41,569 nt of DNA from a virus (lineage: Duplodnaviria; Caudoviricetes). Position 1 is the first letter of the stretch; every line of letters begins with the position of its first letter. The notes beneath the pieces are model-generated. The model was given only the letters and a program-made list of their open reading frames with translations. It ran no database searches and had not been told where the DNA came from. Below are positions 3,527 through 29,132 of this stretch, in pieces. Both the position numbers and the translations under genes were made by a program. Where the stretch lies: the IMG/VR virus record IMGVR_UViG_3300032212_000047, positions 1-41,569 of that record. One strand, 5' to 3'.

Positions 3527-4303
3527 ATGTCTGACCCTCAAGTTGAAGACGGTTTCACACGAATTGCAAACGAGTTGCTTGATGCAATTTTATTATACCC
3601 ATTTACAAAAAGAGAGCATGTAGTCGTGTTAGCCATCATAAGAAAGACATACGGATTCAATAAAAAACGAGATGATATTTCGCTTTCTCAACTCGTTAAA
3701 ATAACCAATCTCCCAAAGCCTCATATCTCCGCAACGGTTACCAATTTGGTAACCCTTAATGTTTTATTTAAGAAATCGGGTAAATACGGGCATGTTCTTG
3801 AAATTAATAAGAAATACAGTAAATGGGTTACCAAAACGGTAACGGTTACCAAAACGGTAACGGGGGGTTACCAAAACGGTAACGCAGAGGTTACCAAAAC
3901 GGTAACCACAAAAGACAACCTTACAAAAGACAATATTACAAAAGACATAGTCGAGGAAAAAAATCCCTCGACAGAAGATGAAGGAAAGCCAAAAAAATAC
4001 AGCTACACAAATGGCGATCTTGAAATTGCCAGAAATATGTTTTCAAAGATTCTTGACTTAAACCCAAAACATACAACCCCTAACTTTGAGAGTTGGGCTA
4101 ATACAATTCGTTTGATGCGAGAAAGAGACAATCGAACCCATAACGAAATAATACGAGTTTTCTCATGGGCGAATAATGATTCGTTCTGGCAGTCAAATAT
4201 TTTATCTCCATCAAAACTCAGACAACAATTCAACCAGCTCTCAATCAAAATAAATAAAACTCAAAATAATTATAACGACGATCAATTTTTAGGTGTGATA
4301 TGA
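3527..4303 (+). CDS. lambda O-like replication initiator
   Basis: EDGFTRIANELLDA...IIRKTYGFNKK N-terminus, internal iterons, and DSFWQSNILSPSKLR C-terminal motif. Confidence 0.92.
   Translation: MSDPQVEDGFTRIANELLDAILLYPFTKREHVVVLAIIRKTYGFNKKRDDISLSQLVKITNLPKPHISATVTNLVTLNVLFKKSGKYGHVLEINKKYSKWVTKTVTVTKTVTGGYQNGNAEVTKTVTTKDNLTKDNITKDIVEEKNPSTEDEGKPKKYSYTNGDLEIARNMFSKILDLNPKHTTPNFESWANTIRLMRERDNRTHNEIIRVFSWANNDSFWQSNILSPSKLRQQFNQLSIKINKTQNNYNDDQFLGVI
3826..3947. repeat. replication origin iterons
   Basis: Four copies of GGTTACCAAAACGGTAAC (3826, 3844, 3866, 3889) followed by three ACAAAAGACA. A related palindrome lies at 3736-3754. Confidence 0.9.
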
Positions 4304-6090
4304 CAGCACGAGAAATAGCCCAACGATTAGCTAATTTTGTCGAAGATATTTGCCGACAATTATTGCCGAATGGAAAGAAGCAGGGTAGCGAGTGGTGCTC
4401 AGGATCTATCTACGACGAAAAAGGCGACTCACTACGAGTCCATTTGTCAGGTGAAAAAGCGGGAGTTTGGAAAGACTTTGCCTGCAATGATAAAGGCGGT
4501 GATTTGCTAGACCTCTACAGCAAGACACAAGATGTCGGAATCAAAGAATCGATTATTTGGGCGAAAGATTATCTAGGCATTGAAGATACATATTTTTCAG
4601 GCAGTAAAAAAACATACAAAAAACCAGAAAAGCCAAAATGCACAAAACCAAAAGGCGGGGTATTAAATTATTTGCTGGATGAAAGGAAGCTTTCACAAGA
4701 TTCGATTGACGCTTACAAAATTTCCGAAGCAGGTGATGAGATAGTTTTCCCTTATCTGCGAGATAGTGAGTTAGTTTTTGTTAAATACCGAAATTTCAAA
4801 GACAAGAAAAAACAACGAACCGAAAAAGACTGTGAACCCTGTTTGTTTGGCTGGCAAGCAATACCAGATGATGCACGAGAAGTTTTAATCTGTGAAGGCG
4901 AGATAGACGCGCCTAGCTGGTACATGGCTGGTATTCCTGCATTAAGTGTTCCGACTGGTTCGCAAGGTACAACCTGGATAGAGAACGAATATGACAATTT
5001 AGATCGCTTTGATGTTATTTATATATCATTCGACCAAGACGAGGCGGGGAAAAAAGGTGCAGCAGAAGTTATAAGTCGTTTAGGAAATGATCGATGCCGC
5101 CTTGTTTCTCTGCCATTGAAAGACGCAAACGAAGTCATTAAAAATATGGACGCACTCGCGTTAATTGGATGCAAGGAAAAATCAAAATCTCTAGATCCAG
5201 AAGAACTCAAAGCCGCTAGTTACTACCACAACAAAGTTATTGATATTTTTACAGGAAAAGCGCAAGAGCTTTCTGGTTATGTTCTGCCATGGGCGAAAGG
5301 TAGAGATCGCTTCCGTATCCGAATGGGCGAATTAACGATATTGGCAGGAGAGAATTTTCACGGTAAGTCCGAAGGCGTAGGACATATCTTGGTTGACTGT
5401 AAATCTCAAGGCGCAAAAATTTGTGGCGCATCCCTAGAATACCCGCCACAAAAATGGATTGCAAATTTAGCCGTACAAGCATCGGGTATCGACCCAAAAG
5501 AATCCTCCAAAGATTATGCTGAAAAAGTCGTTTCATGGACAGAGGAAAATCTTTGGTCTTTCAACGCATCAGGAACAGCCAAAGGACAAAAGGTTTTAGA
5601 AATATTCTTGTACGCTCACAAACGATACGGTATTGATTTATTTGTTATCGATAACCTGGCTAAGTGCGGATTCGATGAAGATGATTACAACGGACAAAAG
5701 AAATTCATCGATAATTTATCTGATTTCGCTAGAGATTTTAACGTCCATGTAATTTTAGTTCACCACCTAAACAAATCCGAAGAGGGCAAAGCAAGAACAA
5801 AAGCAGCCGTAAAAGGGACGGGTGCAATAACAGATATGAGCCACAACGTAATTATTTGGTGGCGAAACCGGAACAAAGAAAGAGAGTTAGAAGCTACAAA
5901 AAAAGAAGATGTCTCAGATTCATTATTAAATAAACCAGACGCATTAATGATTGTGGAAAAACAAAAAGAAGGGGGAGACACCCCAAAGATAGGATTATTT
6001 TTCGATAAAAAATCAAGACAATTTTTAGAGTTTAAAAATGCAAGACCAAAGCAATACGTTAACTACTCAGCAATTGCAGAGGAAGCGTGA
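4300..6090 (+). CDS. bifunctional TOPRIM primase / SF4 helicase (T7 gp4/Twinkle-like)
   Basis: TOPRIM motifs ICEGEIDA and FDQDEAG; Walker A AGENFHGKS; Walker B FVIDNL; ILVHH. Confidence 0.92.
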   Translation: MTAREIAQRLANFVEDICRQLLPNGKKQGSEWCSGSIYDEKGDSLRVHLSGEKAGVWKDFACNDKGGDLLDLYSKTQDVGIKESIIWAKDYLGIEDTYFSGSKKTYKKPEKPKCTKPKGGVLNYLLDERKLSQDSIDAYKISEAGDEIVFPYLRDSELVFVKYRNFKDKKKQRTEKDCEPCLFGWQAIPDDAREVLICEGEIDAPSWYMAGIPALSVPTGSQGTTWIENEYDNLDRFDVIYISFDQDEAGKKGAAEVISRLGNDRCRLVSLPLKDANEVIKNMDALALIGCKEKSKSLDPEELKAASYYHNKVIDIFTGKAQELSGYVLPWAKGRDRFRIRMGELTILAGENFHGKSEGVGHILVDCKSQGAKICGASLEYPPQKWIANLAVQASGIDPKESSKDYAEKVVSWTEENLWSFNASGTAKGQKVLEIFLYAHKRYGIDLFVIDNLAKCGFDEDDYNGQKKFIDNLSDFARDFNVHVILVHHLNKSEEGKARTKAAVKGTGAITDMSHNVIIWWRNRNKERELEATKKEDVSDSLLNKPDALMIVEKQKEGGDTPKIGLFFDKKSRQFLEFKNARPKQYVNYSAIAEEA

Positions 6091-8599: not shown

Positions 8600-9145
8600 A
8601 TGAAAAATACTTTAAGTTCAAGACTACACGCAATGCTCATCAGCATTTTTATTTCCGTTTTGATGCTTGTTCAAACGCAGGCTCAGGCGGAAATAATAAA
8701 GTACGACAAGTACACAATTGGGATAAATTTAAAGCCGCTTTCAATTTGTGCTATTTGGAAAGACTTAAGCAAGACGGATTATTATCAGTTTCGAGTCGTC
8801 AACGAAGCCGAGCTAAGAAGTCTGTTAAAAAAAGTTGTTGGAAAAAACGAAAAAGAAATAGAGGAAGTTGCCAAGCAAATACCTGTTACTCGCAAGCCGA
8901 TAGACGTTGAAATTGCACTTTGTAAAGAAGTTCAGGCTATTGCTGAAAAACCAAAAGTGTGGCGGGTAGCTAAGAATGGGAAGTATAAAACACGTCCTGT
9001 TTATACAACGGATTTAAATAAGAAAACAAAACACAGAGCAGCCGTAGGTTGGAATTGCGGGAAGTTAATTAAAAAAATTAATTCAAAACAACAATGGCGC
9101 TATCGTTATTTCGACAGAAAGCCTTATGCTGTGGTGTGTGAATGA
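8600..9145 (+). CDS. basic exported protein with signal peptide
   Basis: Hydrophobic N-terminus ending in AQA; ATGA coupling to the next gene. Confidence 0.7.
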   Translation: MKNTLSSRLHAMLISIFISVLMLVQTQAQAEIIKYDKYTIGINLKPLSICAIWKDLSKTDYYQFRVVNEAELRSLLKKVVGKNEKEIEEVAKQIPVTRKPIDVEIALCKEVQAIAEKPKVWRVAKNGKYKTRPVYTTDLNKKTKHRAAVGWNCGKLIKKINSKQQWRYRYFDRKPYAVVCE

Positions 9146-11373
9146 CCGCTTATGCCTCAGCAGGAACAGGTAATTGGAATATTGATACTAATTGGTCACC
9201 AGTTGGTGTACCTGTCGCAGGTGATACGGTTACTATCAATGCAGGCCATACGATAACCGTACCAAGTGCTTATCTTGCCGTTTACGGTACAGGGTTAGCA
9301 GGTACATGGGATCTAGATATACTTGGTTATTTTTATGTATACGGTGATTTAGATTTACAAGGTGATATGCGCTTACAAACTGGAGCGTTAGTAAGTTGTA
9401 GTGCTGGTTCAGTTTTAACGGGTAAAGTTATTGACCCAACTATATTGCTTGGCACAACAAATAACGGCGTTGTGACATTTAACTGTAACGGAACAGGCTG
9501 GGAAGCAGGTAATTCGGTGCAGATTAAAGGTGATGTTGGCCGCCATATTAAGTTTACAGATGTTTTGGCCGGCACAGCATCACCACAGGACAACGTCACA
9601 GCTAGATTTACTCGTTTTACTAATGTTGGCGATAGCGCAAACGATGCCTTTTTTACTGAATCGAATGTCTTTAAAACGTATGACTTTGCCGATGTCGTCT
9701 TTGATAATTGTGGACGATTAAATTTTGACGGACAGCTTGCACCAACGTTTACATTTAAGTATCAGAGAATTCTATGGGTTAATCCAGCAGTAGCAAGGCC
9801 GGTTTATTTTGCTACTAATGGGACATCAACAACATTAACATCAACTTGCTATATTAAAGATAGCGTCTTGATCGGCGATGGAGTAACCGTTCCGTCACTT
9901 TATATCGACAAGAACATATCAAACGCTGGCAATGCCGTTGTGTTCGATAACGTCGGTGTTATTGATGCACAGATATTCTTACGACATGGTTCTAATTATG
10001 ATATTTCATTCTGGGGGCAAAGTTTCGCGGCAGCAACACAAGATATACTGTTATATCGTGGTTCTGCCGAAGGTGGTTCGATAATACATGATTATGTTGT
10101 GTCAACTTTCCATAGTAACGCGCATCAAATCACAGGTTCAGCAAGTTTAGCGACTGTTACGAATCCGACTATTTTTGAAAATGGATTCTCACAAGGCAAC
10201 AATAGTATTGATGATTTACTTATTCTGATTGATGGGGCTATATCAAGAAATAATATCGGGCTGGCCGGTACGATGCATAACACGTTATCGAATGCAGGTA
10301 GCGGTGATATTAAAATGTTACACAATACCCATGTCGGCACAGCCGCACATGGTAAAACAAACTTGCATCGAATCGAAACACAAGAGCCAACACAAAATAT
10401 TGAAGTTCAATCTAATATCGACTATCGAGACGATATTAGTGGTGATGTCATAGAGAATGCGGCAGGGCTAACGGCGGATGTTGTCAACATTGCCGACTAT
10501 AACGTACAAAGCTATAAAGGCGGTGGAGAACCAGCGTGCGCTTATCATTCGAGCGTGGTTATCACAGCTAAGACCTGTGGTGACGCAGGATTCGGCCAGA
10601 ATGACATTAACAACAATCCTAATTTTGTTAATGAAGATTTTAGAATCTCAACTTGGCACGATACGTTAATCGGTGACGGTGTTACCGAACAAGATAAAAC
10701 AAATAATGCGTTTACTGAATTAATTAAAAATACTGTAAATCACGATAGAACAGGCGCTTACACTTCAACAGTTGATACGCGATATACAAAATCTAATTTC
10801 CTCATAGCAGCACGAACAGCCTTTGCACCGACTAATGTTGCTTTACAGAATAACGGGCATGATGGAGTAACGAGGGGAGCGCTTGAGTATGTTTCTGCTG
10901 ACACACCTTTAACAGTACAAAGTTTTAATCAGTCATATTCTTTAGATGTGCCTGTACTTACACAAGCTAATGTTCTATCCATAGCAGATATTTTACAAAG
11001 CAGCTCAACAGATAACGTATTATTATCACAGGGCAATATTATCGCTATTGATAATGTTACTTTTTCGAGCAGTTATGAAAATGTGGCTTTAGATGCTAGC
11101 TTGTCTTTGATTGTCTCAGATTTAAACTACTCTCAGTCACTAGAAAACAGCGTCTTATCTCAACAAAACATATTAAGCGTTCAATCTGCTTTGTATAGTG
11201 TTGGCGTGGATAATATAAATATTACTCAAGCTAATGTCTTGGTTGTTGATAATCAAACATATTCAAGCTTACTTGATGCGATTTTATTATCAGTAACTTA
11301 CCCTGTCACCACTCCATTAAGCAGAATTCAGATAATTAAATCAGAATCCCGAACCTTTATCATTTATAACTAA
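9142..11373 (+). CDS. large beta-helix-like putative head fibre/adhesin with 22-aa C-terminal repeats
   Basis: G8-like start GNW..TNWSP.GVP.AGDTVTI.AGHTIT; Asn/Gly/Thr-rich body; six 22-aa repeats at about 10909-11296. Confidence 0.6.
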   Translation: MTAYASAGTGNWNIDTNWSPVGVPVAGDTVTINAGHTITVPSAYLAVYGTGLAGTWDLDILGYFYVYGDLDLQGDMRLQTGALVSCSAGSVLTGKVIDPTILLGTTNNGVVTFNCNGTGWEAGNSVQIKGDVGRHIKFTDVLAGTASPQDNVTARFTRFTNVGDSANDAFFTESNVFKTYDFADVVFDNCGRLNFDGQLAPTFTFKYQRILWVNPAVARPVYFATNGTSTTLTSTCYIKDSVLIGDGVTVPSLYIDKNISNAGNAVVFDNVGVIDAQIFLRHGSNYDISFWGQSFAAATQDILLYRGSAEGGSIIHDYVVSTFHSNAHQITGSASLATVTNPTIFENGFSQGNNSIDDLLILIDGAISRNNIGLAGTMHNTLSNAGSGDIKMLHNTHVGTAAHGKTNLHRIETQEPTQNIEVQSNIDYRDDISGDVIENAAGLTADVVNIADYNVQSYKGGGEPACAYHSSVVITAKTCGDAGFGQNDINNNPNFVNEDFRISTWHDTLIGDGVTEQDKTNNAFTELIKNTVNHDRTGAYTSTVDTRYTKSNFLIAARTAFAPTNVALQNNGHDGVTRGALEYVSADTPLTVQSFNQSYSLDVPVLTQANVLSIADILQSSSTDNVLLSQGNIIAIDNVTFSSSYENVALDASLSLIVSDLNYSQSLENSVLSQQNILSVQSALYSVGVDNINITQANVLVVDNQTYSSLLDAILLSVTYPVTTPLSRIQIIKSESRTFIIYN

Positions 11374-16824: not shown

Positions 16825-16840
16825 ATGCGTGGAGAACACT

Positions 16841-18058
16841 ATGTCACAAGCATATCAAAGTAATTTATCAGATGAGCAACGCGAAAATATCGTTGCTTTA
16901 AAGTCGATTGAAAAATCACTAGAAACTAAATTTGGTGATTTAGACGATACCATTGAACAAATGAATGGTCAGATGAAAGAGTCTGGCACTGTTTCAGTTG
17001 AAGTAAAAAACGCTGTTGAGAAATTAACAGAAGATTACGATGGCCTATATACTCGCCTTCAAGAGGTTGAGCAAAAAGGTATCCAGCTGCATGAAGATGC
17101 ACATGGTATTGATATTGGATCAGAGTTTATTAAGTCCGAACAATATCAAGCTTTAGTTGAAGGCAAACAAGGCCAAGCGCGAATTGAGGTGAAAACCGCA
17201 ATTATTAATGCGACAGGTCAAAACCAACCTTTAGTACCAGCAGATCGCAGCATGGGTATTATCAGCGAGCCTAATCGCATGCTTCGCATTCGTGACGTTC
17301 TTGCTGCAACAGGTACAAATAGTAATTTAATTGAATACGCAAAAGAAAATGTATTCACTAATAATGCTGGTCCTACTGTCTCTGGTTCACCGGAACAATT
17401 TGAAAATGTAACTAAACCAGAATCTGGAATCACATTTACGCTTGAAAATGAACCTGTTCAAACTATTGCGCATTGGATACCAGCATCTAAACAAGTGATT
17501 GAAGATTCAGCACAATTACAAGGGTATATCTCTGGTCGTTTAACTTATGGCTTGAAATTGAAAGAAGAAACTCAATTGTTGACCGGTACAGGTGCTAACG
17601 GCCAATTGAATGGCTTAATCACTCAAGCAACTGCTTACACTGTGCAATCACCTCAATTAACTAACGAAATGGACATTATTCGTGAAGCAATCAAACAAGC
17701 TCAATTGTCTGAATACTTCCCAACGAATATTGTACTTAATCCACAAGATTGGTATGACATTGATGTTCGTAAAGTTGGTACTTCTGATGACCGTTATGTT
17801 GTCGGCAACCCACGCGAAATGTCAGCGCCACGTTTATGGGGTCTTCCTGTAATTCTATCTAACTCTATATCAGCAGGTACTTTCTTGCTAGGTGCATTTG
17901 ATATGGGCGCGGAGATTAAAGACCGCATGCAAGCTACAGTTGAGGTGAGCCGTGAAAACAGTGATAACTTTGTTAAGAACATGATCACAATTCTTGCAGA
18001 AGAACGTATTGCGCTTGTTGTATATCGTCCGGCTGCTTTCATCACTGGCTCATTATAG
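16841..18058 (+). CDS. major capsid protein, HK97 fold
   Basis: GGAG RBS then ATG 16841; coiled-coil delta domain; KPES...TIAHW; NFVKNMITILAEER.AL.VYRP.AF. Confidence 0.97.
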   Translation: MSQAYQSNLSDEQRENIVALKSIEKSLETKFGDLDDTIEQMNGQMKESGTVSVEVKNAVEKLTEDYDGLYTRLQEVEQKGIQLHEDAHGIDIGSEFIKSEQYQALVEGKQGQARIEVKTAIINATGQNQPLVPADRSMGIISEPNRMLRIRDVLAATGTNSNLIEYAKENVFTNNAGPTVSGSPEQFENVTKPESGITFTLENEPVQTIAHWIPASKQVIEDSAQLQGYISGRLTYGLKLKEETQLLTGTGANGQLNGLITQATAYTVQSPQLTNEMDIIREAIKQAQLSEYFPTNIVLNPQDWYDIDVRKVGTSDDRYVVGNPREMSAPRLWGLPVILSNSISAGTFLLGAFDMGAEIKDRMQATVEVSRENSDNFVKNMITILAEERIALVVYRPAAFITGSL

Positions 18059-18092: not shown

Positions 18093-18359
18093 ATGAAAAT
18101 TAAAATACTTGGTAATCCAATTACTGCGCATGGTTCATTTGATGATGGGCAGATATTGACGGATGAGAAATATCAGAAAGCTTTTCTTGATCATCTAGTG
18201 GAAGCAAATGCAGCGGAATACGTGGACAAAGAAAAATACGAAACAAAAGTTGTTGAGGTGGAAGCTGTAAAAAAGAACCCGTCTTCACTGTTATCGCAAC
18301 CGGCCAAAGTCTTGAAGAAAGAGACATCCAAAAAGCGCAAGAAAAAACAAAAGTCATAG
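18093..18359 (+). CDS. small post-capsid protein with Lys-rich tail (zero-frame product)
   Basis: 88-aa ORF immediately after the capsid gene; contains the slippery site at VKK. Confidence 0.8.
   Translation: MKIKILGNPITAHGSFDDGQILTDEKYQKAFLDHLVEANAAEYVDKEKYETKVVEVEAVKKNPSSLLSQPAKVLKKETSKKRKKKQKS
18255..18275 (+). promoter_or_regulatory. -1 programmed ribosomal frameshift signal
   Basis: GAGG(TGG) at 18255 and A AAA AAG at 18269-18275, in the correct phase. Confidence 0.75.
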
Positions 18360-18841
18360 CAGTAAACAATGCATGGGAGCTATGCAAAGACGCTCCTTAT
18401 CATTATGCATGTGACTTTAAATGGTGGGATACCTACTATAACGATGTGAAAGAGGGCTTTAATGGCGAATCTTTCACTATTAACGATACAGATAGCAGCT
18501 TAAACCCATCAAGTGAGTATGATTTGACTCGAGTCAATTCAAGAAATGGTAATAGCCTCGGTGAAGATGTTATTCATTATGGCGGCAATTCAGGCTATCA
18601 AGCGGTGAATTTAGCCTATTTATTAGGTGCAAAAACGATCATTTTATTGGGTTTTGATATGTTTGGGACGCATTATTTCGGTAATCACCCTGCAAATTTA
18701 AACAATGGCTCACCTTATAAACGATTTATTGAAGCCTTTGAAACAATCAACCCTAAAAAGCATGGAATAGAGATAATAAATTGCTCAAGACAAACAGCCC
18801 TAGAATGTTTTCCGAGGACAACAATCGAATCGGTGTTGTAA
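18275..18841 (+). CDS. Maf/DUF115/GT42-like transferase domain, expressed as a -1 frameshift fusion (249 aa in total)
   Basis: VFTVIATGQSL...VIAVNNAW...YACDFKWW lies upstream of the track's GTG at 18446 with no in-frame start. It continues as NSGYQAVNLAYLLGAKTIILLGFD. Confidence 0.75.
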   Translation, partial: EPVFTVIATGQSLEERDIQKAQEKTKVIAVNNAWELCKDAPYHYACDFKWWDTYYNDVKEGFNGESFTINDTDSSLNPSSEYDLTRVNSRNGNSLGEDVIHYGGNSGYQAVNLAYLLGAKTIILLGFDMFGTHYFGNHPANLNNGSPYKRFIEAFETINPKKHGIEIINCSRQTALECFPRTTIESVL

Positions 18842-19398
18842 TTGGTACCGGTCCTTCATTAACGGTTGAACAATTAGAAAAAGTTAAGCATTTAAAGAAG
18901 TTTGGTTGCAATCGAGCGTTTGAATTTGATTTGGATGTTTTAGCTGCAACCAATAAAGAGTTTTGGGATCACTATTGGCCTGATATTAAAGATTTAAGGT
19001 GTGAAAAATGGACACCTTATAAGCCAACCGCTGAAAAATACAATATTAATTATATTGAAGAACGAAACGAAAAAGGACTTTCTACAGATACGAGTTATAT
19101 CCATCATCATCATGGCAGTGGACCAATTATTCTAAACATTGCCTTGCATTACGGTGTAAAGAAAATGCTTTTGATTGGCTGGGATATGCGTCACAAAGGG
19201 AAACGGCATTACTTTGGTGAATACCCTAAGTCTATGCAGCACACCACAAAGAACCTTGGCCCCGATGGTGAGTTAATCGGACTTATTAAAGAGATGGAAA
19301 CTATTAATCCATCAGACTACGGAATTGAAATAATCAATTGCACTCCTAACAGTGCTTTAAAACATTTTCCAATGGGAAACCTTGATGACCATATCTAA
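18805..19398 (+). CDS. second Maf/DUF115/GT42-like transferase (paralog)
   Basis: VIGTGPSL...GCN...SG...LNIALHYGVKKMLLIGWD...HYFG...GIEIINC motifs shared with the upstream domain. Confidence 0.7.
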   Translation: MFSEDNNRIGVVIGTGPSLTVEQLEKVKHLKKFGCNRAFEFDLDVLAATNKEFWDHYWPDIKDLRCEKWTPYKPTAEKYNINYIEERNEKGLSTDTSYIHHHHGSGPIILNIALHYGVKKMLLIGWDMRHKGKRHYFGEYPKSMQHTTKNLGPDGELIGLIKEMETINPSDYGIEIINCTPNSALKHFPMGNLDDHI

Positions 19399-19924
19399 TC
19401 CAGTACCAGAAGACGAACAAGTAATAATTTGGCCTTTAGTCGGTAAAACGATGCTTGAGTTAGGCAATAAAAAGAATGCTAACGGTGTTTATAAAACATA
19501 TTTTGAATCATTAGAAATTGAGCATACTTCGATTGATTGGAATGGCGAGGATGGTGCTTTAAAACTTGATTTGAGAGTGCCTATCGATCTTGAGCCGTTC
19601 GATATGGTTACGAATATAGGCACAACAGAGCATGTTTCAGATCAAAAAGCAGTATGGGAGAACATTCACAACCTAACGAAAATTGGCGGCGTGATTACCT
19701 CCTTAACCCCCTTAGAAGGTGATTGGTGGTGGCATGGTGAACACTATCCAAGACGTGAATTTTTTGAGCAGTTCGCAAAAAATGGCTATGAAATAGAATA
19801 CATGGATATAGGCCGTGAGCACCCAAATAGAAATCTATGCGTAAGGCTTAAAAAGATTTCACATAATGAATTTGTGATGCCTGAACCTGAAACGATGTTT
19901 TACAACAAAATGAGAGCACGATGA
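19382..19924 (+). CDS. class I SAM-dependent methyltransferase-like protein
   Basis: MLELG, SIDWNG, FDMVTNIGTTEHV and NLTKIGG motifs. Confidence 0.75.
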   Translation: MMTISNPVPEDEQVIIWPLVGKTMLELGNKKNANGVYKTYFESLEIEHTSIDWNGEDGALKLDLRVPIDLEPFDMVTNIGTTEHVSDQKAVWENIHNLTKIGGVITSLTPLEGDWWWHGEHYPRREFFEQFAKNGYEIEYMDIGREHPNRNLCVRLKKISHNEFVMPEPETMFYNKMRAR

Positions 19925-20430
19925 AAAGCGGTATTATCACTGAAAAAGAAAAATATAAAAAAGGCTGGACTGGTGGATTACCTGAAACGCCTTGTGGGTA
20001 TGGCTCTAAATTATCAGCCACAAAAAAACAACGTGACTGGATGCCTGAAATATTTGAAAAGTACAATATTAAATCTATTGCTGACATTGGCGCTGGCGAT
20101 CTTAATTGGATTAAGCATATTGATCTTGGTGATATTGAGTATCAAGCCTTTGATTTAGTGCCAAGGCACCCAGAAGTTAGGTCGTTTGATTTGTTGAAGA
20201 AAGTGCCTCCAAAAGTTGATTTAATCATTTGCCTTTGGGTATTGAATCACATGCCATACGATCACTGCAAGCAAGCTATTAAGAATCTTAAAAAAAGCGG
20301 CGCTAAGTATTTAATGATGACCGATGTTGAGCGTTATCATAAAAATCAACCACCAGAAATTCAAATGGATCATATTGAAATGCTTAATAACGGTGATTTA
20401 CTCGGAACAATTAAACTCATTAAATTATGA
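19921..20430 (+). CDS. class I SAM-dependent methyltransferase
   Basis: SIADIGAGDLNW, FDLV and DLIICLWVLNH motifs. Confidence 0.82.
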   Translation: MKSGIITEKEKYKKGWTGGLPETPCGYGSKLSATKKQRDWMPEIFEKYNIKSIADIGAGDLNWIKHIDLGDIEYQAFDLVPRHPEVRSFDLLKKVPPKVDLIICLWVLNHMPYDHCKQAIKNLKKSGAKYLMMTDVERYHKNQPPEIQMDHIEMLNNGDLLGTIKLIKL

Positions 20431-21044
20431 TCACCGTCTTTTGTGTATGCGTAGGTGATAAATATCACTCTGGCTATGTTTACGCACTAAGGGAAATGGT
20501 TGAGAATTTTTTAACTATTCCTCATGAGTTCAAGTGTATTTCAGATAAAGAATTAATCGGAATTGATACAATAAAACCTGTTAAGGCTTATCATTCTTGG
20601 TGGTCAAAATTAAACTTATTCGCTCCAGGTATTGCAACAGGTAAAAGTATCTATCTGGATTTAGATGTTGTCATTACAAAGAATATTGATTATTTAGCTG
20701 AATATACAGATACCTTTTCCGCTCCTGCGAATTGGGCTCAATCTGGGCATGGTGGAATTCAATCATCTGTTATGTGTTGGCCGGGTAACTGGTCAAAACC
20801 TTTTGATGACTTTAATTATGAAAATGATTCCTCAAGATTATGGGGCGACCAAGAATTTCTCTGGGAGTTGCTTGGCGATGATTGGCAAAAAGTTCAACAT
20901 GTTGGATCGTATAAGTACCATTGCCGTGAAAATATTCCTGATTGGCTACATGTTTGTGCTTTTCATGGTAAGCCTGATCCTCACGAAGTAAAAGACGAAT
21001 GGATGCTACCTTTCACTGCAACTTTACACAGCCACATCAAATAG
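20427..21044 (+). CDS. GT-A fold glycosyltransferase (GT8-like)
   Basis: WWSKL, YLDLDVVI (DxD), SSVM, GDQ and FHGKPDP motifs. Confidence 0.85.
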   Translation: MITVFCVCVGDKYHSGYVYALREMVENFLTIPHEFKCISDKELIGIDTIKPVKAYHSWWSKLNLFAPGIATGKSIYLDLDVVITKNIDYLAEYTDTFSAPANWAQSGHGGIQSSVMCWPGNWSKPFDDFNYENDSSRLWGDQEFLWELLGDDWQKVQHVGSYKYHCRENIPDWLHVCAFHGKPDPHEVKDEWMLPFTATLHSHIK

Positions 21045-21640
21045 AACATGCTCAGTGGTTTAAAAAAGGGTTAGCAAAGCACAATATAAAACTTCGTGTG
21101 ACAAATGACATCCAACAAGAGGCGGATGTACACATTGTTTCAGGTCCACACTACGCGAAACAATATTGGTTGAATCATCCAAAGGTTATTCTTTTAGATC
21201 GTGCTTTATATCATCAAGACAAGCCTAATAAATGGCACTCAATGGATTGGCTCTCAATAGGATGGATGAAAGATGGCAGTCGAGAATTTAAAATTGGTCA
21301 TGGACGTAAAAGTCCTATACCAAAAACTAGAAGCACTGGAACAGGAACTATATTCCTCGCAGATTACAATGGACCAGTGGAACACGCTGATACAGTCCGT
21401 CTACATCCGGCAAATGAGCATAACAGAGAACCATTGTATGACGCTTTACTTCGACATGCTCATGCCATCGGATATAACACAACTGCATTAGTCACAGCCG
21501 CACTCAAAGGGCTTGAAGTAACTTGCAAAGACAAAAGAAATATTATGTATCAGAAAAATTGGCTTGAGATTTTACCTTATGCTGATTGGAGATACTCAGA
21601 GATTGAATCAGGTGAACTATGGGAACACTTACAACTATAA
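20999..21640 (+). CDS. putative GT-B-like transferase (KpsS/KpsC-like C-terminal motif)
   Basis: VRLHP...YNTTALVTAALKG resembles the HP...NST...EA...G motif. Confidence 0.5.
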   Translation: MDATFHCNFTQPHQIEHAQWFKKGLAKHNIKLRVTNDIQQEADVHIVSGPHYAKQYWLNHPKVILLDRALYHQDKPNKWHSMDWLSIGWMKDGSREFKIGHGRKSPIPKTRSTGTGTIFLADYNGPVEHADTVRLHPANEHNREPLYDALLRHAHAIGYNTTALVTAALKGLEVTCKDKRNIMYQKNWLEILPYADWRYSEIESGELWEHLQL

Positions 21641-23267: not shown

Positions 23268-23687
23268 ATGACAGCAGGTTTCACAGGCGGATTAACTTTC
23301 AAGATGAGCGATAGCGCATCTCCAGAGGATTACTCAGTAGTTGAAGAAGCAAAAAGCGTTTCTGGATTAGGGAAGACTAATCCATTAATTGATACTACAA
23401 GCTTCGATTCAACATCAAGAGAATATATTGCAGGTCTTGCAGATGGGCAAGAAATATCAGTCGAATGCGTACGGGTTCACACGGCATCTAATATTCAAGA
23501 TACGGTTATCACTGCTATTGATAGCGGCTTAACTAAGAATTTTCAGCTTACTTTAACAGACGGCACAACATCAAAGACCTATACATTCGCTGCTGTTTGT
23601 TTGTCATGGGCAATTACACCTTCTTTTGATGATGCAACAATGGTCTCTTTTACATTTAAAATTACTGGCGATATAACGGTAGCATGA
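23268..23687 (+). CDS. tail tube protein
   Basis: IDTTSFDS..REYIAGLADG and FTFKITG motifs. Confidence 0.9.
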   Translation: MTAGFTGGLTFKMSDSASPEDYSVVEEAKSVSGLGKTNPLIDTTSFDSTSREYIAGLADGQEISVECVRVHTASNIQDTVITAIDSGLTKNFQLTLTDGTTSKTYTFAAVCLSWAITPSFDDATMVSFTFKITGDITVA

Positions 23688-23971
23688 TGAAATTTAAAAC
23701 TAAAAAACTAAAAATAGATAGTGAAAAATTCGACATAAAAGAAATAAATGCTAGACAAAGGCAAGAGCTTTTCAAGCTATTTAAAGATGAAACCGATCCA
23801 GTTGAAGCGCAAGCTCATGCCATTAAAATGGGCTGCTCTCAATTTCAGGATATGGCAATAGATGAAATCCTTGATATGCCTGGCACTGTCTTTGCCAGCT
23901 TAGCCGAAGAAGTAATGAATATTTCAGGGCTTGGTGATAAAAGTGAGAAAGACGAAGTAAAAAATTCTTAA
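23684..23971 (+). CDS. tail assembly chaperone (G-like)
   Basis: Located between the tube and tape-measure genes; ends with GTA AAA AAT TCT TAA. Confidence 0.85.
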   Translation: MMKFKTKKLKIDSEKFDIKEINARQRQELFKLFKDETDPVEAQAHAIKMGCSQFQDMAIDEILDMPGTVFASLAEEVMNISGLGDKSEKDEVKNS

Positions 23972-24282
23972 CCGATCCGAGTAGATTATTTATTTTTCGC
24001 TTAGCCCTTGCCCTTGGCCGAACGGTTAACGAATTAGAAAGCTCTTTAGGATCGGGGGAGTTAACTGAATGGAAGGCTTATTACTCAATCGAGCCATTTG
24101 GCCAAGAACGAGATAACTGGAATAGCGCAATTATTGCCTCAACTATTGCAAATTATAGCGGCAAAACAAGAATTCCAAAAAAACCAGAAGAATTCATGTT
24201 TACTCATCCTGAAATAAAACGACACCAAGAGACCCACAAAACCCTGTTAATGATGGAAGCGCTGGCTAAAAAAAATGTCTAA
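23959..24282 (+). CDS. tail assembly chaperone T segment via -1 frameshift (GT fusion)
   Basis: Slippery A AAA AAT at 23959-23965. The -1 frame reads FLTDPSRLFIFRLALALGRTVNELE...ELTEWKAYYSIEPFG; not in the ORF track. Confidence 0.88.
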   Translation, partial: KKFLTDPSRLFIFRLALALGRTVNELESSLGSGELTEWKAYYSIEPFGQERDNWNSAIIASTIANYSGKTRIPKKPEEFMFTHPEIKRHQETHKTLLMMEALAKKNV

Positions 24283-26568: not shown

Positions 26569-27327
26569 ATGACAGCATACATCGGTTACAACAATATTCT
26601 TGAATCTGGGACTGTTTCTGTCACATCTGAGGCTACAGGATACCCAAAGGAGAACGCTTTTGACTGGCTTCCTGGTGATTGGTGGAAAGCTAATGGATCT
26701 GGAACTGTTTATTTAACAGTTGATATGGGTGTAAGCACTATTGTTGACTATTGGGCTTTAGCGTTTCATGATTTAGCTGATCACTCTGGCACTATCAAGC
26801 CGCAATATAGCTCTGGCTTAACTTCTCCTATTTCTTGGTCTGATTTGGATACTGTTCAAACACCCACAGAAAACCAAATGATTTTCAGACCTGTTACTCA
26901 ACAAAATGTAAGATATTATCGTTTTGAAATTTCCTCAACTTCAGTGGCTTCGTGTATCGGCTCTTTATTATTAGGGCAGGCTTTGACTTTACAACGTGGA
27001 ATCAAGGCACCTTTTACAACTGCTAAACACGGAAGAAATAAAAAGATACTTAACAGTCTAAGTGAGACGGGGAATATTATTGGTCGGACTGTTTATCGGC
27101 AAGGTCAAAAATTCTCAATTCAGCAAAAGAATGTCACTCCTGCATGGATTAGTAGTAATTGGGATGACTTAATCGACCACGTAGAAGCTAAGCCGTTTTT
27201 CTTTATGCATGACTATGAAGACGCCCCTAATGAAATTTGTTTTGCATGGTCTAATAAAATATCACATCCTAATTATAATAATAATGGTTTTCAGGATTTC
27301 TCTATTGAGTGTGGCGCTCTAATATGA
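26569..27327 (+). CDS. distal tail-like protein
   Basis: First tail gene after the tape measure; beta-rich sequence. Confidence 0.65.
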   Translation: MTAYIGYNNILESGTVSVTSEATGYPKENAFDWLPGDWWKANGSGTVYLTVDMGVSTIVDYWALAFHDLADHSGTIKPQYSSGLTSPISWSDLDTVQTPTENQMIFRPVTQQNVRYYRFEISSTSVASCIGSLLLGQALTLQRGIKAPFTTAKHGRNKKILNSLSETGNIIGRTVYRQGQKFSIQQKNVTPAWISSNWDDLIDHVEAKPFFFMHDYEDAPNEICFAWSNKISHPNYNNNGFQDFSIECGALI

Positions 27328-29132
27328 GTTTTGACACTGAGCAGTCAAGACTGGGCCATGAGACTTTTGTGCAATGTGAATTAGATTTAGATTATTGTTC
27401 TAATTTATATGGTGGTGGGCTGTTAAGTCCTTTAAACGGTACTTGTACGTCCGCGCTTTCAGTTGGCAGCGAGTGTTATAACACGCGTCACGAATGCCAA
27501 GACACTGACAATTTTGCCAAGACAACAAAGACATATATTTTCTGTACGCCACATCCTAATATCCCAGTAGGTACAGAGATGATCCCTTGTATTGTTGGAG
27601 AACCAAAATTTACACCCACAGAAATTAAACCCGATGGCGGTATGTCATTAAGATCTAAAGTTACCATAAAGGTAAAAGACTTTCCTCACCATGATCGAAA
27701 TGTTGACCCATACGTTTCGACTCGAGCTAATACAGCTCAAGGGACATATTTCGGAAGGCTATTAGAAAGAAACCGCTATTATGTTGGTCGTTTAATGCGT
27801 GTAAAAGATGGCTATATTGATCAAAATGGATCTTTGCAGTTACAAACAAGGCTTTATGTTATAGATAAAATCACTGGCCCTGTATCATCAGGTGACGACC
27901 TAATATACACAATAACTGGAAGCGATATATTAAGTCTCGGAAAAGATACAAGAATACAAATACCACCACCCACAGACGGTATCCTTAATGCTGATATTAC
28001 CTCTGGAGCAACAAGCCTTGTTTTAGACGGTGGAACAACAATAGCGGATTACCCTTCAGGTGGTGGAATCGTTGTTATAGGTGACGAATGGATCGCCTAC
28101 GCATCAAGAACAAGCTTTACTTTAAATTCTTTAACTAGAGGCGCAAAAGGAACAACCGCTGATGAGCATAAAGCTGGTGACGGTGTTCAAATTGTTAAAA
28201 ATTTCACTGGTACGCCTATTGCCGTAATTTATGAAATATTAACATCTTATATCGGAATTAGCTCCGCTTATATTCCTTATAATACATCTCCATTAGGCGC
28301 TTGGAATGATGAAGAAACCAACTGGCACAATGGCGTATCTATAGATTCATATATTGGAACACCTACTGGAGCATTCAAATTATTAACAGAACTATGTGAA
28401 GTTTTTAATATTGATCTATGGTGGGATGAAATAGCTTCAGAAATTAAATTAAAAACCAATGCGCCTCCACTAGGAAACGTACCTGTAACAGAATTAAACG
28501 ATGGAACTCATTTGGTTGCAGATAAAACTACAATATCAGAGGACCCAGATAGAAGAATAAGCCGTATTATCCTTCATTATCATAAAATAGATTATAGCGA
28601 AGGAGATAAAATATCAAACTTTGCTAGACATCATTTTGAAACCGATGATGTAGTTGAGGGATCGGATTTATACGATGAAATTAGACTTAAAGAAATAAAG
28701 TCAAGATGGTTAACAAACTTAAATGATTCAACTGCGATTCAGAATACACAAAGAAAGATAGCCAGGTTTGGTGAAACACCAATCACAATTAAATTTTTTT
28801 TAACCGCTAAAGACGCTGCATTAAAAACAGGTGATTTATGCGACATAACAACCAGTAAAAGACAAAACTCAGACGGTAGTCCAAAAACAGTTCGCTATCA
28901 AGTTGTAAAACATAAAGAATCAAAGATAGGCCATCAAGTCGATTATGATGCATTAATCAGTAGTTTTACTTATAACACTCGATATGCATTTGTTGCTGAT
29001 AACTCACTTAATACCACATCTCCTATGACTGTTTACGATAATGCAAGTGACGCTGAGAAACTTGCAAATGCTTTTGTTGGGCCAAATTCAGGTAACTTCC
29101 CTGATGGCGGCACTCTTTATTTAATAATCTGA
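27309..29132 (+). CDS. tail tip/baseplate hub protein (start probably MSFD)
   Basis: Cys cluster with CYNT; DPY...R...GTYFG; LTRGAKGTTA..H.AGD.V; LWWDE motifs. Confidence 0.75.
   Translation: MWRSNMSFDTEQSRLGHETFVQCELDLDYCSNLYGGGLLSPLNGTCTSALSVGSECYNTRHECQDTDNFAKTTKTYIFCTPHPNIPVGTEMIPCIVGEPKFTPTEIKPDGGMSLRSKVTIKVKDFPHHDRNVDPYVSTRANTAQGTYFGRLLERNRYYVGRLMRVKDGYIDQNGSLQLQTRLYVIDKITGPVSSGDDLIYTITGSDILSLGKDTRIQIPPPTDGILNADITSGATSLVLDGGTTIADYPSGGGIVVIGDEWIAYASRTSFTLNSLTRGAKGTTADEHKAGDGVQIVKNFTGTPIAVIYEILTSYIGISSAYIPYNTSPLGAWNDEETNWHNGVSIDSYIGTPTGAFKLLTELCEVFNIDLWWDEIASEIKLKTNAPPLGNVPVTELNDGTHLVADKTTISEDPDRRISRIILHYHKIDYSEGDKISNFARHHFETDDVVEGSDLYDEIRLKEIKSRWLTNLNDSTAIQNTQRKIARFGETPITIKFFLTAKDAALKTGDLCDITTSKRQNSDGSPKTVRYQVVKHKESKIGHQVDYDALISSFTYNTRYAFVADNSLNTTSPMTVYDNASDAEKLANAFVGPNSGNFPDGGTLYLII

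What the first reader, a model, noticed from the sequence alone, without database searches (positions are those of the whole stretch)
18093..18841. Hidden -1 frameshift fuses the post-capsid protein to a sugar-transferase-like domain
Seen: the -1 frame opens after a TGA at 18254 and encodes the N-terminal motif VFTVIATGQSL (paralog: VVIGTGPSL) with no start codon before it. At that point the upstream ORF reads GTA AAA AAG, and GAGG lies 10 nt upstream of the heptamer. Established: A AAA AAG with a 5' internal Shine-Dalgarno is the dnaX/IS3-type -1 signal. Predicted products are an 88-aa short form and a 249-aa fusion sharing 61 residues. The tail chaperone site uses the same GTAAAAAA context. 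Inference: the shared N-domain binds capsids and delivers the enzyme at a fixed ratio, giving a capsid-targeted modification enzyme that standard annotation truncates.
Basis: partly seen in the sequence, partly recalled or inferred. Interest (0 to 1): 0.86.

Follow-up and report, generated by a model that had tools for sequence, protein, structure and literature searches.

The report
Frameshift joins head-module protein to glycosyltransferase
The small gene after this phage's capsid gene overlaps a sugar-transferase-like gene that has no start codon, and the same one-base offset with a slippery site recurs in dozens of distant phages, so the ribosome likely slips back one base to make both a short protein and an enzyme fusion that is predicted, but not shown, to put sugars on the phage head.

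Summary
Observation confirmed. An 88-aa ORF (18093-18359) follows an HK97-type capsid gene. A Maf/MptE-like enzyme frame opens at -1 after TGA 18254 and has no start codon before its core. A AAA AAG lies at 18269, with GAGG 10 nt upstream. The fusion would be 249 aa.

The layout is conserved. It is found in 60 of 89 non-redundant related loci, and in 43 of the 47 that directly follow a capsid gene. Of the 60, 54 carry an in-phase X XXY YYZ heptamer, against 16 expected. The heptamer sequence varies, and Pseudomonas phage D3 has C CCA AAG. The short protein's tail also stays open (55 of 60, 14 expected), so both products appear selected. Five of six long homologues carry the same N-domain in frame.

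The enzyme model best matches the flagellin glycosyltransferase Maf (Z 14.7). The N-domain has an L9-N/GINS-B/gpFI-like fold, but the match is weak (Z 4-5). Capsid binding, donor, acceptor and shift rate are untested, and the window has no 3' hairpin.

Ten literature searches found no description of this frameshift. Four earlier scan reports reached the same reading. Verdict: a new variant of phage -1 frameshifting.

The parts
16829..18058 (+). HK97-type major capsid protein gene, directly upstream; candidate acceptor
   Evidence: PF05065 E 1.6e-48
18093..18359 (+). 0-frame ORF, 88-aa short product: ~50-aa beta-alpha domain, acidic linker, Ser/Pro-rich then Lys-rich tail (net +11)
   Evidence: 11 relatives of 86-98 aa besides itself
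18093..18275 (+). Shared N-terminal 61 codons; L9-N/GINS-B/gpFI-CTD-like fold, resembling DUF7210/DUF7302
   Evidence: model pLDDT 82; Z 4-5; Pfam hits in 4 and 2 of 51 alignment members
18254..18256 (+). TGA that closes the -1 frame 13 codons before the motif alanine, so no upstream start can read the enzyme
18255..18260 (+). Internal Shine-Dalgarno-like GAGGTG, with GAGG 10 nt before the heptamer
   Evidence: GAGG is the commonest sequence at -14..-11 among 40 A6 loci; stronger than synonymous recoding, p 9e-5
18269..18275 (+). Slippery heptamer A AAA AAG (Lys-Lys), predicted -1 shift site
18257..18841 (+). -1 frame encoding a start-less Maf_flag10/MptE-like (GT42/GT29-fold) domain; 188 residues of the predicted 249-aa fusion
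   Evidence: PF01973 E 9.3e-7, below cut-off; PHROG 4603 E 1.3e-43; homologue model matches Maf at Z 14.7
18781..19398 (+). Second Maf/MptE-like paralog, 32% identical, with a weak start (TTG 18781 or ATG 18805) and no slip site
19382..20430 (+). Two SAM-methyltransferase-like genes
20427..21640 (+). A glycosyltransferase gene and a 213-aa unknown gene, ending the modification cluster before the head-tail connector
   Evidence: PHROG 1962 E 2e-18; connector PF05135 at 21619
23959..23965 (+). Tail assembly chaperone G/GT -1 site A AAA AAU (separate, known type)
   Evidence: PHROG 344

Best explanation
The gene after the capsid gene overlaps a start-less glycosyltransferase-like frame offset by -1 at a conserved slippery site, and it likely makes two proteins: an 88-aa head-module accessory protein and, by a predicted programmed -1 ribosomal frameshift at A AAA AAG, a 249-aa fusion that would use the shared N-domain to bring a Maf-like sugar transferase to the phage head. 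Shown: the frames, the absence of a start codon, the heptamer and SD, their conservation, and selection keeping both frames open. Inferred with high confidence (~0.9 for two products, ~0.85 for ribosomal tandem slippage): tRNA-Lys pairs slip back one base, helped by the upstream SD, without a 3' hairpin, so the fusion is probably the minor product. Inferred with moderate confidence (~0.7): the enzyme transfers a CMP-activated acidic sugar (Kdo or a nonulosonic acid from the host pool) onto Ser/Thr, as Maf does on flagellin, and the downstream paralog, glycosyltransferase and methyltransferases extend and cap the glycan. Inferred with lower confidence (~0.55): the N-domain docks on proheads like lambda gpFI, so the capsid is the acceptor, while the short form with its basic tail keeps an ordinary assembly or packaging-helper role.
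For: Layout: 60 of 89 loci at <70% enzyme identity have the -1 overlap, as do 43 of 47 within 520 nt of a capsid gene. A separate genome collection gives 13 of 14 post-capsid loci. Heptamer: 54 of 60 against 16.1 expected under synonymous recoding, with 0 of 20,000 simulations as high. A AAA AAG falls in the slip-competent phase in 28 loci against 3 and 2 in the other phases. Lys-Lys pairs read A AAA AAR in 39 of 40 loci against 55 of 399 background pairs. The heptamer changes sequence (C CCA AAG, C CCU UUG, A AAC CCN, G GGA AAA, U UUU UUG) but keeps its phase. SD: -6.8 versus -5.1 kcal/mol recoded, 29 of 40 stronger. A 9-14 nt spacing is the published range for -1 shifting (PMC5009743). In the overlap the enzyme frame is the conserved one (identity 0.60 versus 0.33), yet the 0 frame stays open for at least 20 codons in 55 of 60 loci against 14 expected. 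Five of 6 long homologues carry the N-domain in frame (E 1e-12 to 3e-4; reversed controls 0.19 or more). Fold: Maf 5mu5 Z 14.7, rmsd 2.7 over 165 residues; Cst-I Z 11.7. Of 38 loci with 3 kb downstream, 15 have a second paralog and 14 have the glycosyltransferase.
Against: There are no reads, RNA or peptide data. The window has no 3' structure (z +1.08), and across 54 loci the mean z is only -0.61. The window's own SD is matched by 12% of synonymous recodings, and several relatives have no SD. Six of 60 loci lack a full heptamer. 29 of 89 loci were not classed as -1 overlap; most have their own start and no N-domain nearby, so the enzyme can work without the domain. The N-domain's fold matches are all under Z 8, and gpFI ties with L9-N and GINS. 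The in-frame fusions are single-member clusters and could include assembly indels. The pyrophosphokinase MptE also matches (Z 10.9). K+R is not enriched in the first 20 tail codons (0.21 versus 0.23 expected). Loci are related, so the counts are not independent.
Confidence: 0.6

Rival explanations
1. The frameshift is real, but the N-domain does not target the capsid. The enzyme simply borrows a strong late start and an expression ratio, or the domain binds another partner (terminase, DNA, neck or tail proteins, or the short protein's own Ser-rich tail), which is then the acceptor.
For: The fold is shared with RNA- and protein-binding L9-N and GINS B-domains. Many relatives have a stand-alone enzyme, some placed after neck genes as in PAJU2 ORF010. 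In P1 and P7 the enzyme overlaps a different small ORF in the other frame.
Against: The domain gene sits right after the capsid gene in most loci. In-frame fusions keep the folded domain and fall in at least 3 places on the tree, which suggests the domain matters to the enzyme.
Confidence: 0.22
2. The fusion is made by RNA-polymerase slippage on the A-run (an extra A in the mRNA), not by ribosomal slippage.
For: Several relatives have runs of 8-10 A at the site, for example L001, L012 and L022.
Against: The window has only 6 A. Non-homopolymer heptamers occur in phase (D3 C CCA AAG; C CCU UUG; A AAC CCN). The phase preference (28/3/2) and the SD at 10 nt act on ribosomes, not on polymerase.
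Confidence: 0.07
3. The two-product scheme holds, but the enzyme is not a protein glycosyltransferase. It could be a pyrophosphokinase-like enzyme, or a DNA- or host-surface-modifying enzyme of the same fold.
For: PF01973 covers MptE. HPPK 8sd5 matches at Z 10.9 and TPK at Z 7-8. The Pfam score is below the curated cut-off.
Against: Maf and the sialyltransferases rank higher. Invariant His139 and His144 follow the GFD strand, as in sialyltransferase motifs (mapping recalled). The neighbours are a glycosyltransferase and methyltransferases inside the head operon.
Confidence: 0.07
4. There is no recoding: this is an assembly error in a homopolymer, a decayed gene, or an independent non-canonical start.
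For: P0003 is a 249-aa in-frame version from a close relative. Raw reads were not available.
Against: The same offset occurs in 60 of 89 diverse loci and in cultured phage D3. The enzyme frame is intact and conserved. The short tail is under selection. No usable start codon precedes strand 1, and 54 of 89 loci have no ATG/GTG/TTG at all before the motif.
Confidence: 0.04

Closest known systems
Tail assembly chaperone G/GT -1 frameshift of lambda-like phages (PMC5009743, passages)
   Same: One gene gives a short product and a -1 extended product sharing an N-terminal binding domain, inside a morphogenesis operon. The window has such a site at 23959 too.
   Different: It lies in the head module, the extension is an enzyme, and the short form continues about 27 codons in the 0 frame over the enzyme's N-terminus instead of stopping just after the slip.
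Capsid and tail-tube frameshift extensions of phages A2, T3/T7, A118/A500, PSA (PMC5009743, passages)
   Same: Frameshifting adds a C-terminal domain to a head-related protein, and relatives may carry it in frame instead.
   Different: Those extend the structural protein itself, mostly with Ig-like domains. Here an accessory protein gains a catalytic domain.
E. coli dnaX / IS3-family -1 signal
   Same: A AAA AAG with an internal SD 9-14 nt upstream.
   Different: No 3' stem-loop or pseudoknot in the window. Here the shifted product is the long one.
Maf flagellin nonulosonic-acid glycosyltransferases (PDB 5mu5; PMC11339370, passages)
   Same: The central Maf_flag10/PF01973 catalytic fold is the best structural match (Z 14.7).
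   Different: It has only the catalytic domain, without Maf's N-terminal Rossmann-like and C-terminal helical domains. A small phage domain takes their place. Donor and acceptor are untested.
Lambda gpFI packaging chaperone (PDB 2lsm; PMC13595911 and PMC4493119, passages)
   Same: A small protein with a similar domain fold (Z 4.0, rmsd 1.5 over 41 residues); gpFI bridges the capsid and the terminase-DNA complex. Its gene position after the capsid gene is recalled.
   Different: 12% identity, no sequence-level match, and the fold match does not stand above L9-N or GINS. The domain is N-terminal here and followed by a basic tail.
Mycobacteriophage Che8 virion glycosylation (Freeman 2023; not held, seen only as cited in PMC11256854)
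   Same: Phage-encoded glycosyltransferases put glycans on the capsid.
   Different: The related phage described in that citing paper has its glycosyltransferase genes near the genome's 3' end; here they sit in the head operon and the first is frameshift-coupled. I did not compare the enzymes.
Pseudomonas phage D3 orf6.5/orf7 and P1 pmgO / P7 hdmB
   Same: Same enzyme family (PHROG 4603). D3 has the same -1 overlap with C CCA AAG.
   Different: D3 is annotated as two genes with the enzyme truncated. P1 and P7 have in-frame ATGs and a different overlap, and pmgO is non-essential in a CRISPRi screen (PMC10695390, passages).

Membership tests
Programmed -1 ribosomal frameshift (tandem slippage) | X XXY YYZ heptamer in the 0-frame phase, after the last -1 stop | tested here: met
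   A AAA AAG at 18269; 54 of 60 relatives against 16.1 expected
Programmed -1 ribosomal frameshift (tandem slippage) | Downstream frame is coding, conserved and lacks its own start | tested here: met
Programmed -1 ribosomal frameshift (tandem slippage) | Transframe protein is made, and depends on the heptamer | not testable with these tools
   needs reporter or MS data
dnaX/IS3-type signal | Internal SD 9-14 nt upstream | tested here: met
   GAGG at 10 nt; family-level enrichment p 9e-5, window alone not significant at 12%
dnaX/IS3-type signal | 3' stem-loop or pseudoknot | tested here: not met
   z +1.08 over 70 nt; pseudoknots are not modelled by the tool
Maf_flag10/MptE-like domain (PF01973) | Profile score above the curated cut-off | tested here: not met
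   29.2 bits against 34.6, E 9.3e-7
Maf_flag10/MptE-like domain (PF01973) | Maf/Cst-like Rossmann fold | tested here: met
   model of homologue P0003 (60% identical): Z 14.7 to 5mu5, 11.7 to Cst-I
Maf glycosyltransferases | Three-domain architecture | tested here: not met
   only the ~190-aa central domain is present
Maf glycosyltransferases | CMP-nonulosonate/Kdo transfer to Ser/Thr of a protein | not testable with these tools
   biochemistry needed
PHROG 4603 ('alpha-2,3-sialyltransferase') | Full-length profile match | tested here: met
   E 1.3e-43, profile positions 1-173 of 178; the name is an annotation, not a tested activity
gpFI-like head-binding domain | Fold of gpFI C-terminal domain | tested here: inconclusive
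   Z 4.0, tied with L9-N and GINS B-domain; no PDB sequence match
gpFI-like head-binding domain | Binds capsid protein/proheads | not tested
DUF7210/DUF7302 | Profile match | tested here: inconclusive
   window protein has no hit; 4 and 2 of 51 alignment members hit; some distant members pass the cut-off

The most novel reading that the evidence does not exclude
A widespread, unannotated second frameshift in HK97-like phages turns a prohead-binding accessory protein into a dual-use gene. The short form serves in assembly. The shifted form is a self-targeting Maf-like enzyme that primes O-linked nonulosonate or Kdo glycans on the capsid at a dose set by the shift rate, and the neighbouring genes extend and methylate the glycan. 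Proteobacterial phages such as D3 would then carry glycosylated heads, testable in a laboratory phage.
Probability: 0.4. Interest if true: 0.88.

Novelty: new variant of a known kind. Interest (0 to 1): 0.7.

Why it matters
If true, it adds a third conserved class of phage morphogenesis frameshift, after G/GT and structural-protein extensions, and one in which the extension is an enzyme. It would correct many truncated or missing gene calls: 77 of 120 listed homologues lack the N-terminal motif. It also gives a direct route to ask whether proteobacterial phages glycosylate their heads, because cultured Pseudomonas phage D3 has the same site. Virion glycans bear on antibody recognition in phage therapy (secondary citation). 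Within this scan the reading is a repeat: four earlier reports on other genomes describe the same frameshift or fusion.

Tried and rejected
Sequencing runs: one DNA holder, probably the source, kept as contigs, and no RNA holder listed. This gives no evidence on expression. 3' hairpin: not found. 'Same context as the tail chaperone' as support: rejected, because the heptamer differs and the 8-mer is common. A second frameshift into the paralog at 18781: rejected for the window, since there is no heptamer and relatives place the paralog in all three frames, several with their own ATG. K/R enrichment in the first 20 tail codons: not found. 'GRP' (AT-hook-like, recalled) occurs in only 11 of 60 tails. 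Sequence search of the PDB with the N-domain or enzyme profile: nothing significant; Cst-II reached E 0.5. Foldseek gave no match at E <= 0.001 for either model. NCBIfam: no hits. ESM Atlas: feature hits all under 0.9, leads only. Search for longer N-domain proteins: the 34 hits were 134-182 aa, and the five I read were short forms with long 0-frame tails, not fusions. L068, L085 and L096 have long in-frame extensions that look like the domain by eye but did not match the profile at E 0.05, so they are not counted. CMP-sugar synthetase genes occur in 3 of 3 genome bins holding close relatives but also in 11 of 14 controls, which is uninformative. Co-folding the N-domain with the capsid protein was not available, so there is no result. 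The tree is the quick version, with many open forks. Literature searches found no paper on this frameshift. The library lacks most subscription papers. Popovic 2012 and Freeman 2023 were not held. I did not look in supplements (for example PRFect's false-positive lists or genome-wide frameshift catalogues), which may list these loci.

Full report
Setting. The window is a 41.6-kb virus record with terminase, portal, protease and an HK97-type capsid gene (16829-18058), followed by the 88-aa ORF. Next come six enzyme-like genes (two PF01973-like, two methyltransferase-like, one glycosyltransferase, one unknown), then neck and tail genes.

Observation. Every sequence claim checks out. TGA 18254 closes the -1 frame, which is then open for 194 codons. 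GAGG lies 10 nt before A AAA AAG (18269-18275). The products would be 88 and 249 aa. The first standard start in the enzyme frame is GTG 18446. A protein starting there would lack invariant G16, S18, N37, D53 and W57 of the family alignment, so it could not hold the core. The contig of the likely source run has no indel, but that is not independent evidence. The tail-chaperone comparison is weaker than stated: that heptamer is A AAA AAU, it opens a 107-codon -1 frame, and it has no GAGG at 10 nt.

Conservation of the layout. I held 188 loci from viral contigs, metagenomes and four annotated phages. I left out 2 (the window's paralog and a duplicate of the window), 13 with too little flank and 3 where the motif was not found. 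That left 170, which reduce to 89 at under 70% enzyme identity, the window included. Loci were classed by ORF structure only, without looking at heptamers. Sixty of 89 have an ATG-started ORF covering at least 45 codons up to the enzyme's first motif in the -1 relation, with no nearby ATG in the enzyme frame. So do 43 of the 47 loci within 520 nt of a capsid gene. 54 of 89 have no ATG, GTG or TTG before the motif. Three loci classed 'own start' also carry the N-domain in the -1 relation. In the genome collection, 59 loci were found and 10 gave no motif. Of the other 49, 18 were classed as -1 overlap, of which 12 have a heptamer and about three GC-rich ones look misclassified. 13 of 14 post-capsid loci have the overlap. 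The two closest relatives (73-76% identity, in MAG bins labelled Methylomarinum and Alphaproteobacteria) keep GAGGTG and GTA AAA AAG at the same spacing. Cultured phage D3 and two relatives have the same overlap with C CCA AAG, and their records start the enzyme downstream of the motif.

Is the signal beyond chance? 54 of 60 loci have an in-phase X XXY YYZ between the last -1 stop and the motif. Synonymous recoding of the 0-frame protein gives 16.1, with a maximum of 28 in 20,000 simulations. In a fixed window A AAA AAG falls in the slip-competent phase in 28 loci, against 3 and 2 in the other phases; the 29 other loci give 4, 0 and 1. Lys-Lys pairs there read A AAA AAR in 39 of 40 loci, against 55 of 399 elsewhere in the same loci. 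The heptamer is replaced by other slippery sequences in other lineages, which points to selection for slipperiness rather than for a sequence. Six of 60 lack a full heptamer; by eye several of them have U UUU or A AAA tetramers in phase. Upstream of the 40 A6 sites, the commonest bases at -14..-11 are G, A, G, G (26, 25, 24 and 21 of 40). Pairing to the anti-SD is stronger than after recoding (-6.8 versus -5.1 kcal/mol, p 9e-5), though for the window alone 12% of recodings do as well. The review PMC5009743 (passages seen) gives 9-14 nt as the spacing for -1 shifting. No 3' structure is predicted in the window (z +1.08), and the family trend is slight (mean z -0.61; 11 of 54 below -1.5). The loci are related, so these p-values overstate independence.

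Both products look selected. Over the first motif the enzyme frame is the conserved one (0.60 versus 0.33 identity, 55 loci). Yet the 0 frame stays open for at least 20 more codons in 55 of 60 loci, against 14.0 expected by recoding the enzyme frame and 10 of 29 in the other loci. Most tails end in a Lys/Arg-rich stretch, though K+R is not enriched in the first 20 codons. A profile search found 596 N-domain proteins among 50%-identity representatives. Of 149 examined, 57 carry the off-frame shadow of the enzyme motif by a rough pattern, and many short members are just the domain plus a basic tail. I infer that an ordinary small head-module protein acquired the enzyme as an overprinted -1 extension without losing its own tail.

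In-frame fusions. Six of 120 listed enzyme homologues have 45 or more residues before the motif. Five match the N-domain profile (E 1.4e-12 to 3e-4; the sixth 0.052; reversed controls 0.19 or more). On a quick tree they need at least three positions. One, P0003, is 249 aa and 60% identical. All are single-member clusters, so some may be assembly indels, P0003 above all.

What the parts are. The model of P0003 (pLDDT 91.5) has two domains joined by a low-confidence linker at residues 48-59. The enzyme part best matches the Maf flagellin glycosyltransferase (Z 14.7, rmsd 2.7, 165 residues), then Cst-I (11.7), archaeal HPPK/MptE (10.9) and GT29 sialyltransferases (8-9). Maf enzymes move CMP-activated nonulosonic acids or Kdo onto Ser/Thr (PMC11339370, passages). 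The N-domain model (pLDDT 82) matches GINS B-domains, L9-N and the gpFI C-terminal domain at Z 4-5, all tied and under the trust level. It also resembles many small phage proteins, including DUF7210 members. gpFI bridges the capsid and terminase-DNA (PMC13595911, passages). Capsid binding therefore rests on gene position and a weak fold likeness, and the co-fold could not be run. Among 38 overlap loci with 3 kb downstream, 15 carry a second paralog, 14 the glycosyltransferase, 13 the unknown gene and 9 the second methyltransferase; several, D3 among them, have none of the first three.

Mechanism. Shown: frames, signal, conservation and dual selection. Inferred: ribosomal -1 slippage (~0.85), a minor fusion product (no hairpin), sugar transfer from a CMP donor (~0.7), and delivery to proheads by the shared domain (~0.55). 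The main rival keeps the frameshift but changes the target. Polymerase slippage may contribute where the A-run is 8-10 long, but it cannot explain D3.

Novelty. Phage -1 frameshifts are known for G/GT and for Ig-like extensions of capsid and tail proteins. Ten searches (listings seen) showed no paper on this event, and the PRFect main text does not mention glycosyltransferases. Subscription papers and supplements were not seen. Earlier scan reports on other genomes reached the same reading. They are not independent support, and they make this a recurrent rather than a first sighting. Verdict: a real, conserved, apparently unpublished variant of programmed frameshifting with an untested but concrete functional model; interest 0.7.

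Noticed in passing
window 18781-19398: The second Maf-like paralog has only a weak start (TTG 18781, or ATG 18805 without SD), overlapping the first enzyme's end in the -1 frame. In five close relatives both positions are TTG, forced by the first enzyme's conserved residues. No slip site in the window; how it initiates is unclear.
   Followed up: partly
window 23684-24282: Tail assembly chaperone G/GT with A AAA AAU at 23959; the 107-codon -1 frame is missing from the ORF list.
   Followed up: yes
L006/L008 2332-3091 (P1 pmgN/pmgO, P7 hdmA/hdmB) and L250 (Cronobacter phage JK004): The same enzyme family overlaps a different small ORF in the other frame. In JK004 the enzyme gene is not annotated at all. 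pmgN scored essential in one screen and non-essential in another.
   Followed up: partly
L007 2462-3031 (PAJU2 ORF010) and record LR881104.1: Enzyme homologues are annotated 'structural protein', which may mean they were seen in virions; the basis was not checked.
   Followed up: no
L249 1501-2040 (Citrobacter phage phiNP): An unannotated enzyme homologue lies next to an annotated paralog, downstream of lysis genes rather than the capsid gene.
   Followed up: no
L252 1492-2648 (record named Tetraselmis viridis virus S20): Same -1 overlap with C CCU UUG and a glycosyltransferase cluster. The record is classed in Caudoviricetes despite the algal host label.
   Followed up: partly
L043, L050, L069, L088 and relatives: In one lineage the 0-frame tail runs about 80-94 codons over the enzyme, and A AAC CCN and C CCA AAN heptamers replace each other at the same distance (81 nt) from the motif.
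   Followed up: partly
window 9142-11373 and 27309-29132: 743-aa and 607-aa ORFs with no Pfam or NCBIfam hit.
   Followed up: no
window 4300-6090: Primase-helicase fusion (Toprim + DnaB-like) next to a lambda O-like replication gene.
   Followed up: no
P0222: A 272-aa protein made of four tandem copies of the N-domain.
   Followed up: no
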